Assembly (NCBI GenBank): GCA_951406725.2
Contig: OX597822.1
Coordinates: forward strand, 98,270,001-98,334,000
DNA: 64,000 nucleotides
DNA from: Octopus vulgaris
Lineage: Eukaryota
Reading direction: 5' to 3'
This document shows, piece after piece, positions 925 through 45,427 of this stretch (position 1 is the first letter of the stretch; every line of letters starts with the position of its first letter). The notes under the pieces are model-generated. The model had not been told where the DNA came from and ran no database searches. It worked only from the letters and a program-made list of their open reading frames with translations. The translations under genes and the position numbers were made by a program.

Positions 925-1146
925 TATATTAATAAAAAGAATTCCAACCTTGTCTGATTTTCACGTTTTATTTACAATCTTATAATGATATATTATAAGA
1001 TAATATATTATAATTGAATAAAATAAAATGAAATAGTAGAATGTTAAATATTCATTCTGATTGAACTAGTACTTTCATGCATTGAATTCTGCAATCTTCG
1101 GGTTCATGTAGTAGTGTTGACAGTCATGCTTCACAATTTTTGACTG
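925..1146 (-). mobile_element. HHR-bearing non-coding element, family A, copy 1 (Penelope pLTR/retrozyme-like), abutting (TA)n
   Basis: 931-1146 reads identical to 36451-36666; contains a hammerhead fold on the minus strand; its 3' end runs into (TA)n at 907-929. Confidence 0.75.
1062..1106 (-). ncRNA. Minimal type I hammerhead ribozyme, U4C core variant (family A)
   Basis: Minus strand: UGAAC-CCGAAGA-u-UGCA-gaauucaa-UGCA-u-GAAA-GUAC-UA-GUUCA; stem I UGAAC/GUUCA, palindromic AGUACU stem III. Confidence 0.6.
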
Positions 1147-1186
1147 TAGCAAGATGAGTGATTCTGTGCTATAAATACAGCTGGGT

Positions 1187-1381
1187 ATCAATAGTTAGAG
1201 CGTCGGACTCACAATCTTGAGGTAGTGACTTCGATTCCCGGACCGGGCAGTGTGTTGTGTTCTTGAGCAAGATACTTTATTTTACGTTGCAATTCACTCA
1301 ATTGTAGAAATGAGTTACGATGGCACTGATGTCTTTGGCTTTCTCTTGGATAGCATCAGTGGCGTGAAGAGAAAAGGCTGG
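1187..1381 (+). repeat. Truncated, apparently exact duplicate of part of the SINE at 2561-2886
   Basis: tcaatagttagagcg...gaaaaggctgg identical to about 2573-2766. Confidence 0.85.
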
Positions 1382-2560
1382 ATATATATATATATCAATT
1401 TAGAAATATGTGTTTATAAGTATATGTATGTGTATTGTCGAGTAAATAGTTAGGGAATATATAAGCTGATAGAATGTGATAAAAGTAAAAGAGAAGAATG
1501 GATTTGAATAGCGAATGTAAATAATGGGTGAACATGTAACGATTTCTCTGTTAGGAACTAACTAATCTTCTGTGACAATATGCTGACGAAAATGAAAAGA
1601 AATGCACGCGAGAATTGGAGTTCTGCTGTCATTGGGTAAAGAATTTGATAGGATATCGATTTTCCACAAGATTATTTCACTGTTTTCTCTTTGTAGCTTC
1701 TAATTTCAATCGTAATCGATAACATGGACAGGGTTAGATTGCTCACCTATGGAAACTAAAACGAACTAGAAAAGTGCTTGTACATGATAACTTTTTGTGC
1801 TAGAGAAAACAGCATTTAAATTTTCCTCAAAACTCGCGCTCCTGTGTTGGAAATGAAAACGGACTTATTAAATATATCAGTCCGGTCTACACTCTACTTC
1901 GAAAATAAAATCGACTAGTTAGTCATAACTGGAGTGCATGCTTTCAGTAATAGATCTGTTCAGTTCTTGCTTATAATACCAACAAAATATACGATGTTGT
2001 TCCTATTTAACCCTTGGTCGGCAATACTCAAGGTAACTTATGATGAAACGTGTTGTGGCTGTGATAATTGTCCGACTATTTTCTACCTAGAAGTTTGGTG
2101 TAAATGGTATACCAACTTCGATTTCATTTTTATCTGGTCCAAAGAACGCGTAGCAACGGTTTCCTTTGTTAGTTTCCTTGCTGTTATTGTGTCTATCTAT
2201 TTCTAGTGCAGAAGATTTCCAATTACTGCAGTACTATCTTATCCACCTCTGTACCTATCAATATATCATATATACCGAAATTACTGCTGATGTGAACTAT
2301 TTACCAGGCAATGAGGTGGGAATTCTCAACCTGGTCGATTGGCTTGCTAATATTAGCAACACGATTTCTTTCCAGTAACACCTTACCATCTTAGAAAATA
2401 ACATCATGACGGGGGGGGGGGCGTAGATCTACATACCCAGTGATTGGGATGGGGCCGGAATAGACAGGGCTCCTATGATCGAAAATCCGCTCAATCAAGT
2501 TTGATTCGGGATCACACAACAGCAACAATTCAATACTGCATCTACTATATACCTATTATG

Positions 2561-2886
2561 AAGGCACGTGGCTCAATAGTTAGAGCGTCGGACTCACAAT
2601 CTTGAGGTAGTGACTTCGATTCCCGGACCGGGCAGTGTGTTGTGTTCTTGAGCAAGATACTTTATTTTACGTTGCAATTCACTCAATTGTAGAAATGAGT
2701 TACGATGGCACTGATGTCTTTGGCTTTCTCTTGGATAGCATCAGTGGCGTGAAGAGAAAAGGCTGGTATGTATGGGTGCCTGCTGGTCTTCCACAAACAG
2801 CTTTGCTCGAACATATACCTCGGAGGGGAACTTTCTACGTGCAATCCCATGGTGACTCATGATCGGAGGGGGTCTTTACCCATTAC
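2561..2886 (+). mobile_element. tRNA-derived SINE (CORE-like body)
   Basis: A-box-like tggctcaatagttag and B-box-like acttcgattccc, followed by ttgtgttcttgagcaagatactt; head and body similar to 42819-42960. Confidence 0.75.
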
Positions 2887-5626
2887 CCAATAATGCACGA
2901 TATACACGTATTAATACATAACATCTAAATATATGATCTAGGAGAAATAGCAGATAAATCTCCCCCAAATCACATCATGCTACATAAGACAACATAGATC
3001 TGGAGAAATTAAATTGGTTAGGAAGATACAGATGCGCTCGTTAATAATGCGATGAGAGAGTTGGCAGGTCTTCAACAATGACATATAATGTAACTTTTAT
3101 ATAGCGATAGCTACACAATATAATTCATACCTACTGCTAAATATTAATAACTGGATATTCCAGCAAAGGTGAGTAACGAATTAAAAGTGATTTAATGTAC
3201 CTGTTAAAGCGAACTAATATCAGACGATCAGAATTAATTAGAAAATCTAATCTAGGTTTTAACACAATAGATCATCCGATACTCTCTACTGTCATGTTCA
3301 CTCAGGAGAGAGTCTTTCACTATACAGACGTTAGAGTATAATTATTACTGTAATTGACAGCTAGTATGAAGTTAATGTTTAACCTTAGGTTAGCCATGAT
3401 CTAGCACAATGATGATGAAAGGCAACTTGGACGTGACACTGTCCTTTTATTTCAAACAGAGCTTATCTGGAATTATAATCCCCGTTCAAAAATATGTGAC
3501 TAGAGCAAGATTTAGCTTTCTAACAGAAAAAAACGACCCACCTGTTGTTTTATTATTATTATTTTTTTTTGTTGAATTCCTATTTCATATTTGCTGGCCA
3601 GACTATATTCTGTATCGCAACATGGCATCTATAGAATTCATCCACTTCATCACATAGTTTGTCAGCAACTAGAAACCCCTGACTGGAACTCAGTAACACT
3701 GCTTCTCTTTGTACTTCTGTGTCTCTCGGTCTGGAAACTATCATGCCACAAGTATTTTAATTCACGAACTGTTTTGGAAGGAATTTATTTCAACTCACAA
3801 TTCACTTGAGGTATCATTTTTGGAAATATTTTTTTCTATTCTTCAATATTGTATTCGAATAGTCTGACGTTTTCCTAGTCACTCTATTCCAGACACCATT
3901 ATTGACTGACTATTCCTTTATTAAAAATCAGCTAACTTTGCTAGCTCCACGCCGAATAATTTTGGTAGAAAATCACCTCTAGTCAAACCGAAGTAGCTAA
4001 GAAGATGTCTCATAATAATCTCCGAAGAATATATTAATACATCGATCACACAACACAAAAGTGATTCACATTGTGATGAACATTACAGAGCCCATCTGGT
4101 GGAGGCTACTCACCAATAACTAGGGCATTTTGTAACCACGGCTACGAAGCCGTCATAGCGACCGTGAGCATAATCAAGGGATGTCTTTATATGCTTCACA
4201 GTCTGGAATCTGTTCAGTCTTGCCTTAAATTTTAGTGGAGCTTCGTCATCTCTTGCCAAGAATTCGACCAACTTTAATATATTTCCCCTACATCTTGTGA
4301 CTTAAGGACATTTGATTGGTGGGAAGAAGGGAAACATTTATCAGCTAGTAGTCCTTCCACGAATGTTTCCAATACTCCGAGTACCGCTAAAGACACATCA
4401 AACATGTGGTGGTGATATTGAAGAGGGAAACGGATTAAGACATGCAATTTATTGAAGCACGCCGTTAATGGTATTTATATTGGATCGTATTTTACCCCTT
4501 CATCGACCTGGATCTAAACAACAACAAATGCAAGTTGTATTTTTAAGAATTCAACTGATTGCTTAGATAACATTTTCAGAGCTATTATTCGTAAATTTAA
4601 ACATTCTCTATTGAATTCATATGGGGTGAGGGTCTGTTCACATCGATTCACATTAATAATTCCGGTTCATTTTCAGAAACAAATTAATTTTGGTGATAAC
4701 ATTCTAATATTCGAATTAAGTCAACTGGTGATCACTCGGCAAGAAGAATGACACTACACGGCTAAACACATACCATAGGTCAAATCATTCAGCTACAAAT
4801 TTACACTTACCACCCACCCGGGCAAAGAGACGATATCGAGTTTTATACAGCATAAGGGAGTTGTGTATGTGTGTCATGTGTGACACTATTACTAAAATTT
4901 TAACTGATCCTCTGACGTAAGCAAAATACGACGCTACACTAAACTCGAAGAATAAATGCTCTTCTTTTGCGTTGATTATTTCTCACCTATTAGGTTATGC
5001 ATTAAAGCGCTTCTACAAATGACGACCCAGAAAACGTATTTCTTTTACTCCTCCATATCATTCAGGTACTAAACTGCAGCAATTGAAATTATCAATACTT
5101 CAACCGTAACGTCCTTATTTGCGCATTAATATACAGGTTATAACGGCTAAAAATACTGTCCCACTTCCATCACAAATTAAATTTTAAACACACAGAAAAA
5201 TCTTACAACCGATGATTATCCACAGCTACAACATACTAGCTACAACTCCCTCAAATTACAGCCCACTCTATCAAAATAGATACATACTAGATATCAGCTT
5301 ACGCTGAAAGATCGGAGACGAAGTAGTCATGAGTAAAATATCTTTGATTGTATGTCGGCTTATTCGAAGTTGAGATCCAGAACAGCATTTGCAACAAATA
5401 TATCTATAAAGACTAAACACTTTTGGTGAAATCTTTTGTGGGATTTTAGTTGTGATGCTGATACACTCAGATGAAAGTGTCAGTCTTACCAGATTCTTTC
5501 TCTAACATGTACTTTTAATTTGTGTGTGAGTCCCATATTCTTATACTTGTATCATGCATTGTTCTTATTCTTTAGAAGCGTAGTACCTATTCTGAGAGCC
5601 ACTTTTTCCCTAAACCATAAGCATAA

Positions 5627-44258: not shown

Positions 44259-44303
<45 letters not shown>

Positions 44304-44561
44304 GGAATATTATTCCAAACTTACAGGGAAAAATTCAATTTAGAAATACTAAATCAAATTTCACAAAATATAATATATATATATATATATATATAGTTAG
44401 AAAAAAAACACATTTTATCAATTCAATAATGAAAAATTAAATTATACCATTTAGAAAATTACATGTTATACAAAAGATTAAATATAAGATAAAACATATA
44501 ACGATGATTAAGTAATGTGCAAAATAATAAATAAAACGTATATGTATATATATATATATAC

Positions 44562-44601
<40 letters not shown>

Positions 44602-44603
<2 letters not shown>

Positions 44604-45427
44604 TATAAGAAAAAGGGACAGGCAAAACAGGTTGATTGACCGCATACCGAAAAAATAGAAATAGCAGTCAAGAATGCTTATTTCTATCAAAGTTGGACTC
44701 CGGGCATGACAGACCCTGTAATTCACATATGCAAAACAGAAGGAATAGATAACGAATACGAAGTCTGGCGGTTATCTGTGAACATCATGTTTCTGGATTA
44801 TAAACATATTGAATATATATTGAATATATATTTTTGATATATATTTCATATACATTGCATATATATTTCACATCCTTCTTCAGCACAGCTTTCCATTGAA
44901 AAAGATTTATCATAGATTTATCAAATGCTACGTACCTCAAACCTTCTGACCATGCGACATCAAAATATTTGAAGGAAGTGAGCAAAAGCTAAACCTACAT
45001 AGACGTTTGAATTCATAAATCTTCCCTCCAAAATTTTGCCATGCGCATTACAAAAATAGTTCCATAAGATGGGGAACAATTAGGTTGTCAAAGGGAGTGA
45101 AAAATCCAAATAGTAATATAATAATAAAAAGTAAATAATTTCTATAAAGGCTTTTAAAAAAAACCCAATTATTTACTGGTAGAATTCGGTATGTAAATAT
45201 AGCCGATTACCGGCAGGAACTTCTGTAAAGTTCAGTATATATATATTGTATATAAGAAAAAGGGACAGGCAAAACAGGTTGCTTGACCGCATACCGAAAA
45301 AATAGAAATAGCAGTCAAGAATGCTTATTTCTATCAAAGTTGGACTCCGGGCATGACAGACCCTGTAATTCACATATGCAAAACAGAAGGAATAGATAAC
45401 GAATACGAAGTCTGGCGGTTATCTGTG
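44602..45427 (-). mobile_element. Retrozyme-like element, family F: 647-bp unit with 179-bp terminal direct repeats, between (TA)n tracts
   Basis: 44602-44780 repeated at 45249-45427 with one visible mismatch; (TA)n on both sides; internal HHR. Confidence 0.85.
44776..44888 (-). ncRNA. Type I hammerhead ribozyme with long AT-rich loop 2 (family F)
   Basis: Minus strand: CUGUG-CUGAAGA-a-GGAU-(long loop)-AUCC-a-GAAA-CAUGAUG-UU-CACAG; predicted cut between 44781 and 44780. Confidence 0.72.

What the first reader, a model, noticed from the sequence alone, without database searches (positions are those of the whole stretch)
925..45427. At least six unrelated hammerhead-ribozyme retroelement families in about 45 kb, mostly lodged in (TA)n
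Seen: complete type I HHR folds (stem I, core, stem II, GAAA, stem III, NUH, stem I') at 1062-1106 and 36582-36765 (family A), 22811 and 23305 (B), 27174 (C), 37320 (D), 40170 (E) and 44776 (F). No similarity between families was noticed outside the core. All have short palindromic or near-palindromic stem III (AGUACU, ACGGUAUAUCGU, ACGCGU, ACAUAUGU, ACGU, ACAUGAUGU), and A, B, D and F abut TA repeats. Established: minimal HHRs with palindromic stem III occur in Penelope-like element pLTRs and in animal non-LTR retrozymes, and can cleave as dimers. Inference: this genome hosts an unusually diverse population of non-coding self-cleaving retroelements mobilised by a TA-preferring Penelope RT/GIY-YIG machine. 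A Penelope RT remnant lies at 35846-36214.
Basis: partly seen in the sequence, partly recalled or inferred. Interest (0 to 1): 0.92.

Follow-up and report, generated by a model that had tools for sequence, protein, structure and literature searches.

The report
Penelope retroelement ends carrying hammerhead ribozymes
The six self-cutting RNA motifs are real and belong to a known kind of animal jumping gene: three are the broken-off ends of protein-coding Penelope-like elements and three are short non-coding repeats that appear to ride on them, and one element carries a tRNA-like start signal that seems to have spawned thousands of SINE-like short copies.

Summary
The folds are real. Eight of nine type I hammerheads pass a structural descriptor (0 in 100 shuffles); the window copy of E is mutated, but its family is intact. 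Each family has 294 to 3,763 pattern matches in the genome. The reading 'six non-coding families moved by one TA-preferring machine' is only half right. A, D and E are 3' ends of three different coding Penelope-like elements (Neptune-, Hydra- and Poseidon-like by motifs). B, C and F are non-coding tandem retrozymes. A, B, D and F land in (TA)n; E does not (1 of 29). The RT remnant is not the parent of A, D or E. pLTR hammerheads, many families per genome, the U3:A8 core, inversions and two 3' ends are all published. The unexpected part is E. A tRNA-like head sits about 30 nt after the parent's stop codon. Of 15 copies that reach the head, 14 stop within 30 nt of its start, and the parent ORF has no inherited TTTT over 1.9 kb (P about 0.02-0.3, null-dependent). 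This suggests a Penelope-driven, Pol III-started SINE. No cleavage, circle or transcript was shown.

The parts
924..1187 (-). Family A: 3' end (pLTR) of a 4,271-bp coding Neptune-like PLE; hammerhead 1062-1106 with U4C core, predicted cut after 1067; 3' end in (TA)n
   Evidence: 100% identical over 264 bp to the unit in L031; fold
1188..1381 (+). 194-bp piece of a SINE-like repeat joined head-to-head to the A copy and followed by TA; identical to 2573-2766, probably copied from there by a template switch during insertion (inference)
22243..23636 (+). Family B: non-coding retrozyme, 2.5 tandem 494-bp units plus an inverted arm (22243-22418); hammerheads 22811-22917 and 23305-23411 with a 68-nt stem II arm; both ends in (TA)n
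27004..27275 (-). Family C: partial copy of a non-coding 362-bp tandem retrozyme; hammerhead 27174-27215 with U3:A8 core at the tip of a long rod (27129-27260)
35846..36214 (+). Decayed PLE RT fragment (two stops), not the parent of A, D or E
36425..36903 (.). Family A inverted pair: 36425-36667 (-) with the long 3' end, 36680-36903 (+) with the short 3' end; hammerheads 36582-36626 and 36721-36765; both arms start about 30 nt after a TATA-like box of the parent
37277..37617 (-). Family D: 3' end of a 4,684-bp coding Hydra-like PLE (37277-37531) with an inverted tail piece (37530-37617); hammerhead 37320-37397; 3' end in (TA)n
   Evidence: 97.6% and 100% identical to L227
40115..40636 (.). Family E inverted pair: sense arm 40115-40371 (-) with tRNA-like head (about 40284-40356), (AAT)n and a mutated hammerhead (40171-40214, U16.1 changed); inverted arm 40388-40636 (+). 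3' end of a Poseidon-like PLE; not in TA
44590..45427 (-). Family F: non-coding retrozyme, 1.3 tandem units (about 643-bp subtype); hammerhead 44776-44888 with an 81-nt stem II arm; both ends in (TA)n

Best explanation
These are insertion products of Penelope-like elements (PLEs). Shown by sequence: A, D and E are the terminal repeats of three coding PLEs, and B, C and F are ORF-less tandem monomers (494, 362, 616/643 bp) with one hammerhead each. Inferred from published PLE biochemistry: the RT/GIY-YIG protein nicks both target strands and starts reverse transcription at two internal sites of its RNA. This gives each family two fixed 3' ends and inverted pairs with one long and one short end. 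Copying often stops early, leaving only the ribozyme-bearing end. Proteins with a cysteine linker (A, D) insert in (TA)n; the linker-less one (E) does not. B and F show the same ends and TA targets, so they are probably copied in trans by a linker-bearing PLE, from uncleaved multimers or re-ligated circles; C is tandem and inverted too. The short palindromic stem III suggests cleavage as dimers (inferred, untested). In E a tRNA-like internal promoter just after the stop codon probably starts short transcripts that the parent protein copies, like a SINE.
For: A: 4,271-bp tandem units with a 775-aa RT + GIY-YIG frame in 4 of 4 units read. D: 4,684-bp unit with RT and endonuclease frames, 340 protein relatives. 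E: 569-aa RT-to-endonuclease frame directly followed by head and hammerhead in L232, and the same layout in L230 and L231; 398 exact matches to the ORF-end/head junction. B, C, F: longest stop-free frame 68-81 aa; tandem spacings. TA at distinct 3' junctions: B 11/11, D 20/23, F 10/13, A 12/22 (undercounted), E 1/29, background 4%. Core selection: in the first 100 listed B matches N7 differs in 24, positions 3, 4 and 8 in 1, 0 and 0; C keeps A8 in 100/100 and U3U4 in 99/100. C rod z = -7.1, with 3 of 47 pairs changed on both sides. E 5' ends: 14 of 30 stop at -152 to -184 (head start -155), 1 of 30 enters the ORF. Literature: PMC4209133, PMC8557442, PMC11167929, 10.64898/2026.07.22.740005.
Against: No cleavage, circle or transcript start was observed. 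B, C and F share no sequence with the three parents tested, so their partner is unidentified. Clade names rest on motifs read by eye, with no tree; D has no Pfam RT or GIY-YIG hit and RVT_1 for A and E is just under the cut-off. The E head is not called a tRNA by default ARAGORN or Rfam; relaxed ARAGORN is noisy. A also has a 5' hot spot (7 of 30), so such hot spots are not specific to Pol III. Loci are the first matches on C1, and neighbours in arrays are not independent. Some copies carry broken cores (G5A in 18 F hits, U3G8 in 6 B hits, overlapping loci). In Xenopus only 1 of 9 tested dimers cleaved, and hammerhead mutants did not affect insertion of an Anolis PLE in vitro.
Confidence: 0.82

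Rival explanations
1. One reading: all six are stand-alone non-coding elements moved by one TA-preferring Penelope machine, represented by the RT remnant.
For: B, C and F are non-coding; four families target TA; an RT remnant is present.
Against: A, D and E continue into their own ORFs; the three proteins are 23-24% identical; E is not in TA; the remnant matches none of them closely.
Confidence: 0.04
2. B, C and F arrays grew mainly at the DNA level (satellite-like unequal crossover) from solo ends of PLEs not yet found, and the ribozymes are now passengers.
For: This route is proposed in 10.64898/2026.07.22.740005; arrays reach 8 to 13 units; only three parents were compared.
Against: Arrays are dispersed over many loci, end at family-specific 3' positions in TA and carry inverted arms, which DNA-level expansion does not make. 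N7 varies while other core positions stay fixed.
Confidence: 0.12
3. E's head is an ordinary SINE or tRNA pseudogene that landed in the parent's 3' UTR and is inert; the 5' hot spot reflects RT stalling or inversion at a hairpin, or a Pol II start nearby.
For: A short palindrome lies at the head start; several copies keep 10-30 nt upstream of it; A and D have 5' hot spots without a tRNA-like head; tRNA tools do not call it.
Against: Copies include the whole head and stop just beyond its 5' side, whereas a stall would fall on its 3' side (inference). Only 1 of 15 continues into the ORF, against 14 of 30 A copies longer than 1.1 kb. Box A- and box B-like motifs dominate the alignment of 30 loci (box consensus recalled).
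Confidence: 0.35
4. The folds are chance matches in AT-rich repetitive DNA.
For: Variant cores were added after inspection; Rfam lists no hammerhead.
Against: 0 in 100 window shuffles; 1 in 20 shuffles of 400 kb against 6 observed; hundreds to thousands of copies with reversed-pattern controls at 0; position in pLTRs as published.
Confidence: 0.01

Closest known systems
Minimal type I hammerheads in pLTRs of animal PLEs (Cervera & De la Pena 2014, PMC4209133; parts 1-2 of 4 read)
   Same: Short stem I, palindromic stem III region, extra nucleotide after A9, several families per genome, inverted pairs 100-700 bp apart, mostly truncated solo ends, U3-A8 core variant.
   Different: Stem II arms of 51-81 nt in B, D and F; a U4C core fixed in a young family with intact ORFs (A, 98 of 100 listed). 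U4C is mentioned as a low-activity viroid variant (PMC3088659, passages).
Neptune, Hydra and Penelope/Poseidon clades (Craig et al. 2021, PMC8557442; passages and section 11)
   Same: A: DKG, Cys linker, C-terminal GIY-YIG, upstream ORF1 in another frame. D: DKT, CxCX5C, CxxC and CxH around the conserved E and N. E: no Cys linker. (TA)n targets go with the linker; inverted copies; optional tail.
   Different: D has RWA for RWK and is 4.7 kb (Hydra generally under 3 kb). Tails reach about 70-120 nt in D, B and F against 30-40 bp described. No tree was built.
Animal non-LTR retrozymes (Cervera & De la Pena 2020, PMC7229834, passages; Li et al. 2026, 10.64898/2026.07.22.740005, parts 1-3 of 5)
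   Same: B, C and F: non-coding tandem monomers, one type I hammerhead each, size within 51-972 bp, co-occurring with PLEs.
   Different: No pLTR homology found to the three parents tested; circles and cleavage not shown; no cephalopod among the 35 genomes of Li et al.
Schistosoma SMalpha SINE-like elements with a hammerhead (seen only through passages of PMC6765202 and PMC8490949; the original paper was not held)
   Same: A Pol III-type promoter followed by a type I hammerhead in a short non-coding retroelement.
   Different: E's head and ribozyme are embedded in the 3' end of a coding Poseidon-like PLE still present in hundreds of copies, so the partner is visible. E copies are mostly solo or inverted, not tandem.
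Anolis Poseidon element PAc (Frangieh et al. 2024, PMC11167929; abstract and passages)
   Same: Two RT start sites giving a tail signature, AT-rich targets, hammerhead in the pLTR, copies carrying the uncut ribozyme.
   Different: PAc was tested in vitro; nothing here was.

Membership tests
EN+ Penelope-like elements (A, D, E) | RT followed by a GIY-YIG endonuclease | tested here: met
   A: Pfam RVT_1 E 2e-6 (under cut-off) and GIY-YIG E 3e-5. E: RVT_1 E 3e-6, endonuclease by eye. D: motifs by eye, 23% to A at E 6e-5, no Pfam RT hit.
EN+ Penelope-like elements (A, D, E) | Tandem units or pLTRs, and 5' inversions | tested here: met
   A 4,271-bp and D 4,684-bp tandems; E inverted arm in 18 of 30 loci; no full-length E tandem was seen.
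EN+ Penelope-like elements (A, D, E) | Two alternative 3' ends (tail) | tested here: met
   A +19 nt; D about +73, E about +35.
EN+ Penelope-like elements (A, D, E) | Sense-strand type I hammerhead in the terminal repeat | tested here: met
Neptune (A), Hydra (D), Penelope/Poseidon (E) | Clade motifs (DKG/DKT, Cys linker type, CCHH) | tested here: met
   Read by eye against PMC8557442; D has RWA in place of RWK.
Neptune (A), Hydra (D), Penelope/Poseidon (E) | Placement in an RT tree with reference elements | not tested
   No named reference sequences were held.
Non-LTR retrozymes (B, C, F) | Non-coding tandem monomers, one type I hammerhead each | tested here: met
Non-LTR retrozymes (B, C, F) | Homology to a PLE pLTR | tested here: inconclusive
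   None to the three parents held; other PLE families of the genome were not compared.
Non-LTR retrozymes (B, C, F) | Self-cleavage and circular RNA monomers | not testable with these tools
   Only contigs of runs not on record as RNA were offered.
tRNA-derived SINE (E short form) | tRNA-related head with box A and box B | tested here: inconclusive
   Box-like motifs and an anticodon-like arm in the alignment of 30 loci (box consensus recalled); default ARAGORN and Rfam negative; 3 calls in 60 loci at 90% threshold.
tRNA-derived SINE (E short form) | 5' ends at the head start | tested here: met
   14 of 15 copies that reach the head stop within 30 nt of its start.
tRNA-derived SINE (E short form) | 3' end shared with an autonomous partner | tested here: met
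   Same tail follows the Poseidon-like ORF; the partner is a PLE, not a LINE.
tRNA-derived SINE (E short form) | Poly(A) or simple-repeat tail | tested here: not met
   3' ends are PLE-type fixed positions in ordinary DNA. E works like a SINE but is not filed as a classical one.
tRNA-derived SINE (E short form) | Target-site duplication | not tested
   Inversions obscure the 5' junctions.
tRNA-derived SINE (E short form) | Transcription by RNA polymerase III | not testable with these tools
   Needs 5'-end mapping or ChIP.

The most novel reading that the evidence does not exclude
Family E is a protein-coding Penelope/Poseidon element whose terminal repeat captured a tRNA-derived Pol III promoter. 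That promoter makes the short ribozyme-bearing SINE-like RNA (about 55% likely on its own). In tandem arrays it may also transcribe the whole downstream element, which would explain why about 1.9 kb of ORF carries no inherited TTTT terminator. That would be a coding retroelement expressed from an uncapped Pol III transcript, with the hammerhead setting its 5' end.
Probability: 0.15. Interest if true: 0.8.

Novelty: new variant of a known kind. Interest (0 to 1): 0.42.

Why it matters
Most of this is known biology in a genome where I found no paper describing it. It does offer a natural test set for an open question: what PLE hammerheads do. One genome holds young coding parents from three clades, young non-coding retrozymes, and two fixed core variants (U4C in a family with intact ORFs; U3:A8). 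The split between TA-targeting families (Cys linker) and non-targeting E fits the published linker hypothesis inside one genome. If E is as read, it shows a SINE-like element being born from a PLE with the parent still present, and many repeats annotated as SINEs in such genomes could depend on Penelope proteins.

Tried and rejected
Rfam found no hammerhead among the 150 of 265 matches shown and no tRNA at E; the minimal folds needed a custom descriptor. A DNA search of the genome with A found nothing because common words are skipped; patterns were used instead. The first C pattern kept the window's rare U11.1 and gave 4 matches; allowing C11.1 gave 1,209. Expression: no RNA holder listed. Contigs of four runs only guessed to be RNA cover the B monomer and join its end to its start, which fits a tandem as well as a circle; not used as evidence. 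ARAGORN at 70-80% thresholds is too noisy to name the tRNA. The TTTT test is null-dependent: P(0) 0.03 (base shuffle), 0.02 (A+D codon usage), 0.13-0.29 (own codon usage or Markov), so it is kept as a hint. One alignment of C had two rows in the wrong orientation and was redone. No strong RNA structure was predicted after A's ORF1/ORF2 overlap, so frameshift or intron is unresolved. Minimum-energy folds of A, B and D monomers do not form the full hammerhead unaided. PMC5785218 and PMC108972 were not held. Earlier scan findings held nothing for this genome or the E sequence.

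
Full report
Observation. I wrote a type I hammerhead descriptor and scanned both strands. It returns 8 folds at the places named: three of A, two of B, one each of C, D and F. None appeared in 100 block-wise dinucleotide shuffles. A looser version without the palindrome rule gave the same 8 and a shuffle mean of 0.07. 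Two variant cores were added after inspection, so only 4 of the 8 are blind hits. The ninth motif, E near 40170, fails because U16.1 is changed; 29 of 30 other E loci are intact there. The families share nothing beyond chance words. Rfam listed no hammerhead in the 150 of 265 rows shown.

Copy numbers. The window lies in a 2.8-Gb genome, probably an octopod. This is inferred from the named relatives of D's protein and from recalled SINE types. Exact pattern matches, which are lower bounds and count arms and array units separately: A 1,150, B 577, C 1,209, D 1,547, E 3,763, F 294; reversed-pattern controls were 0 each time. Forty evenly spaced 10-kb stretches held 6 intact folds in 4 stretches, none from A-F, against 1 fold in 20 shuffles of the same 400 kb. 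That extrapolates roughly to 40,000 folds (about 15,000-90,000). The window, with 8 in 64 kb, is about 8 times denser. All DNA held (about 1 Mb, enriched for A-F) shows 15 motif types by my grouping.

Three families are ends of coding elements. A matches recur at 4,271-bp spacing. L031 and L032 hold four units, each with a 454-aa frame overlapping a 775-aa frame that carries RT (E 2e-6, just under the Pfam cut-off) and GIY-YIG (E 3e-5). The window copies are 100% identical to the last 224-264 bp of the unit. D recurs at 4,684 bp in L227, with a 640-aa RT frame and a 209-aa endonuclease frame, split by a frame change in this copy. Pfam gave no RT or endonuclease hit, but the motifs DKT, CxCX5C, CxxC and CxH match the Hydra clade in section 11 of PMC8557442, with RWA for RWK. 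E follows a 569-aa RT-to-endonuclease frame in L232 and the same decayed ORF in L230 and L231, with no cysteine linker, as in Penelope/Poseidon. A is 23% identical to D and 24% to E. Clade names rest on motifs; I built no tree. The RT remnant at 35846-36214 is real but is 37% identical to A and gave no match to D or E.

Three families are non-coding. B, C and F occur as tandem units of about 494, 362 and 616 or 643 bp, often with an inverted arm. The longest stop-free frames are 68-81 aa. Two of 64 B/C/F loci had PLE coding hits 0.8-1.5 kb away, from E's parent and a D-like element, not shared between loci. In the first 100 listed B matches, counted by eye, N7 differs in 24 and positions 3, 4 and 8 in 1, 0 and 0; array neighbours are not independent. 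C keeps A8 in 100 of 100 and U3U4 in 99 of 100. Its ribozyme tops a rod with z = -7.1 in which 3 of 47 pairs change on both sides across 6 sequences of two subfamilies. A has U4C in 98 of 100 listed, and a second unrelated family has it too. U4A, U4G, C3A8 and A3U8 folds were absent, while decayed G5A and U3G8 copies occur.

Ends and targets. Distinct 3' junctions touching (TA)4 or more: B 11 of 11, D 20 of 23, F 10 of 13, A 12 of 22 (undercounted, since the reference has an internal TA run), E 1 of 29; background 4%. Array-internal rows, duplicate junctions and six misaligned rows (5 B, 1 E) were left out; C was not tallied. A, B, D, E and F each have two preferred 3' ends, and inverted pairs usually carry one of each. 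PMC8557442 describes the inversions, the optional tail and the link between the cysteine linker and (TA)n (passages). PMC11167929 shows two internal RT start sites, nicking of both strands, and no need for ribozyme cleavage in vitro (abstract and passages). In B the 3' ends lie about 130 and 235 nt past the cut site, so the template was an uncut multimer or a re-ligated circle (inference).

Family E. About 30 nt after the parent's stop codon comes a head of about 73 nt with box A- and box B-like motifs (consensus recalled), then (AAT)n, the hammerhead and the tail. The ORF-end/head junction has 398 exact matches and the RT at least 150. Of 30 hammerhead-anchored loci, 15 reach the head start; 14 stop within 30 nt upstream of it and 1 enters the ORF, whereas 14 of 30 A copies run over 1.1 kb. 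E was seen in 5 of 40 sampled stretches. Against this reading: default ARAGORN and Rfam do not call a tRNA, and A has its own hot spot 30 nt after a TATA-like box (7 of 30). The parent's sense strand has no TTTT in the majority of 10 copies over 1,908 nt; the four runs checked in L232 and L229 are private to those copies, and one in L153 was not checked. A has 9 in 2.3 kb and D 5 in 2.5 kb. The chance of zero is 0.02-0.29 depending on the null.

Comparison with print. PMC4209133 (parts 1-2 of 4) already reports minimal hammerheads in pLTRs, many families per genome, inverted pairs, the extra base after A9, U3-A8 and weak dimer activity. PMC7229834 (passages) defines animal retrozymes. The 2026 preprint 10.64898/2026.07.22.740005 (parts 1-3 of 5) argues that they are non-autonomous PLEs, finds 57 Xenopus families and saw 1 of 9 dimers cleave. 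U4C is a known weak natural variant (PMC3088659 passages). SMalpha couples a Pol III promoter to a hammerhead (review passages). A 2026 octopus repeat annotation lists 31 recently active Penelope-like families and 893 unclassified SINE families and has no occurrence of 'ribozyme' (PMC13282606 passages). Six searches showed no description of a tRNA-like head inside a coding PLE's terminal repeat. For most hits I saw only the listing. Repbase, Dfam, subscription papers and all supplements were not seen and may hold E or these families.

Verdict. The feature is real and mostly a set of new members of known kinds. E is a plausible new variant, a PLE-partnered SINE-like element with its parent in view. 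Catalysis, circles and Pol III use remain inferred.

Noticed in passing
window 1188-1381 and 2573-2766: A 194-bp SINE-like piece identical to a copy 1.4 kb away is fused head-to-head to the A insertion inside a TA tract; this looks like a template switch to nearby DNA.
   Followed up: partly
L031 and L032, ORF1/ORF2 overlap of A: ORF2 lies in the -1 frame of ORF1 in 4 of 4 units, with a run of seven T in the overlap; frameshift or intron is unresolved.
   Followed up: partly
window 13641-13850: A 210-bp near-perfect inverted repeat whose arms contain telomere-like TAACCC units; MITE-like.
   Followed up: no
window 7429-8206: A tandem array of 4.3 copies of a 182-bp unit of a common interspersed repeat (other copies at 14227, 25449, 31618, 58678, 63817).
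   Followed up: no
window 45450-45650: An AT-rich sequence with a 75-bp hairpin directly beyond F's upstream TA tract.
   Followed up: no
window 11100-19000 and 49900-54600: Decayed frames that look like non-LTR retrotransposon ORF1, endonuclease and RT pieces (by eye).
   Followed up: no
window 35584-35922: A frame resembling the C-terminal end of an RTE-type LINE (recalled motif), abutting the PLE RT remnant.
   Followed up: no
L104, L121, L017, L099, L164, L177, L186, L194, L226, L006: Nine further hammerhead motif types, two with U3:A8 and one with U4C cores.
   Followed up: partly
L075 (upstream of the E copy) and L201: Decayed Neptune-like ORFs of other families next to E and D insertions.
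   Followed up: no
L227:2965-4750: D's 3' UTR is about 1.8 kb long and carries its own (TG)n, (TA)n and pyrimidine-rich tracts, so it spreads microsatellite-like DNA.
   Followed up: no
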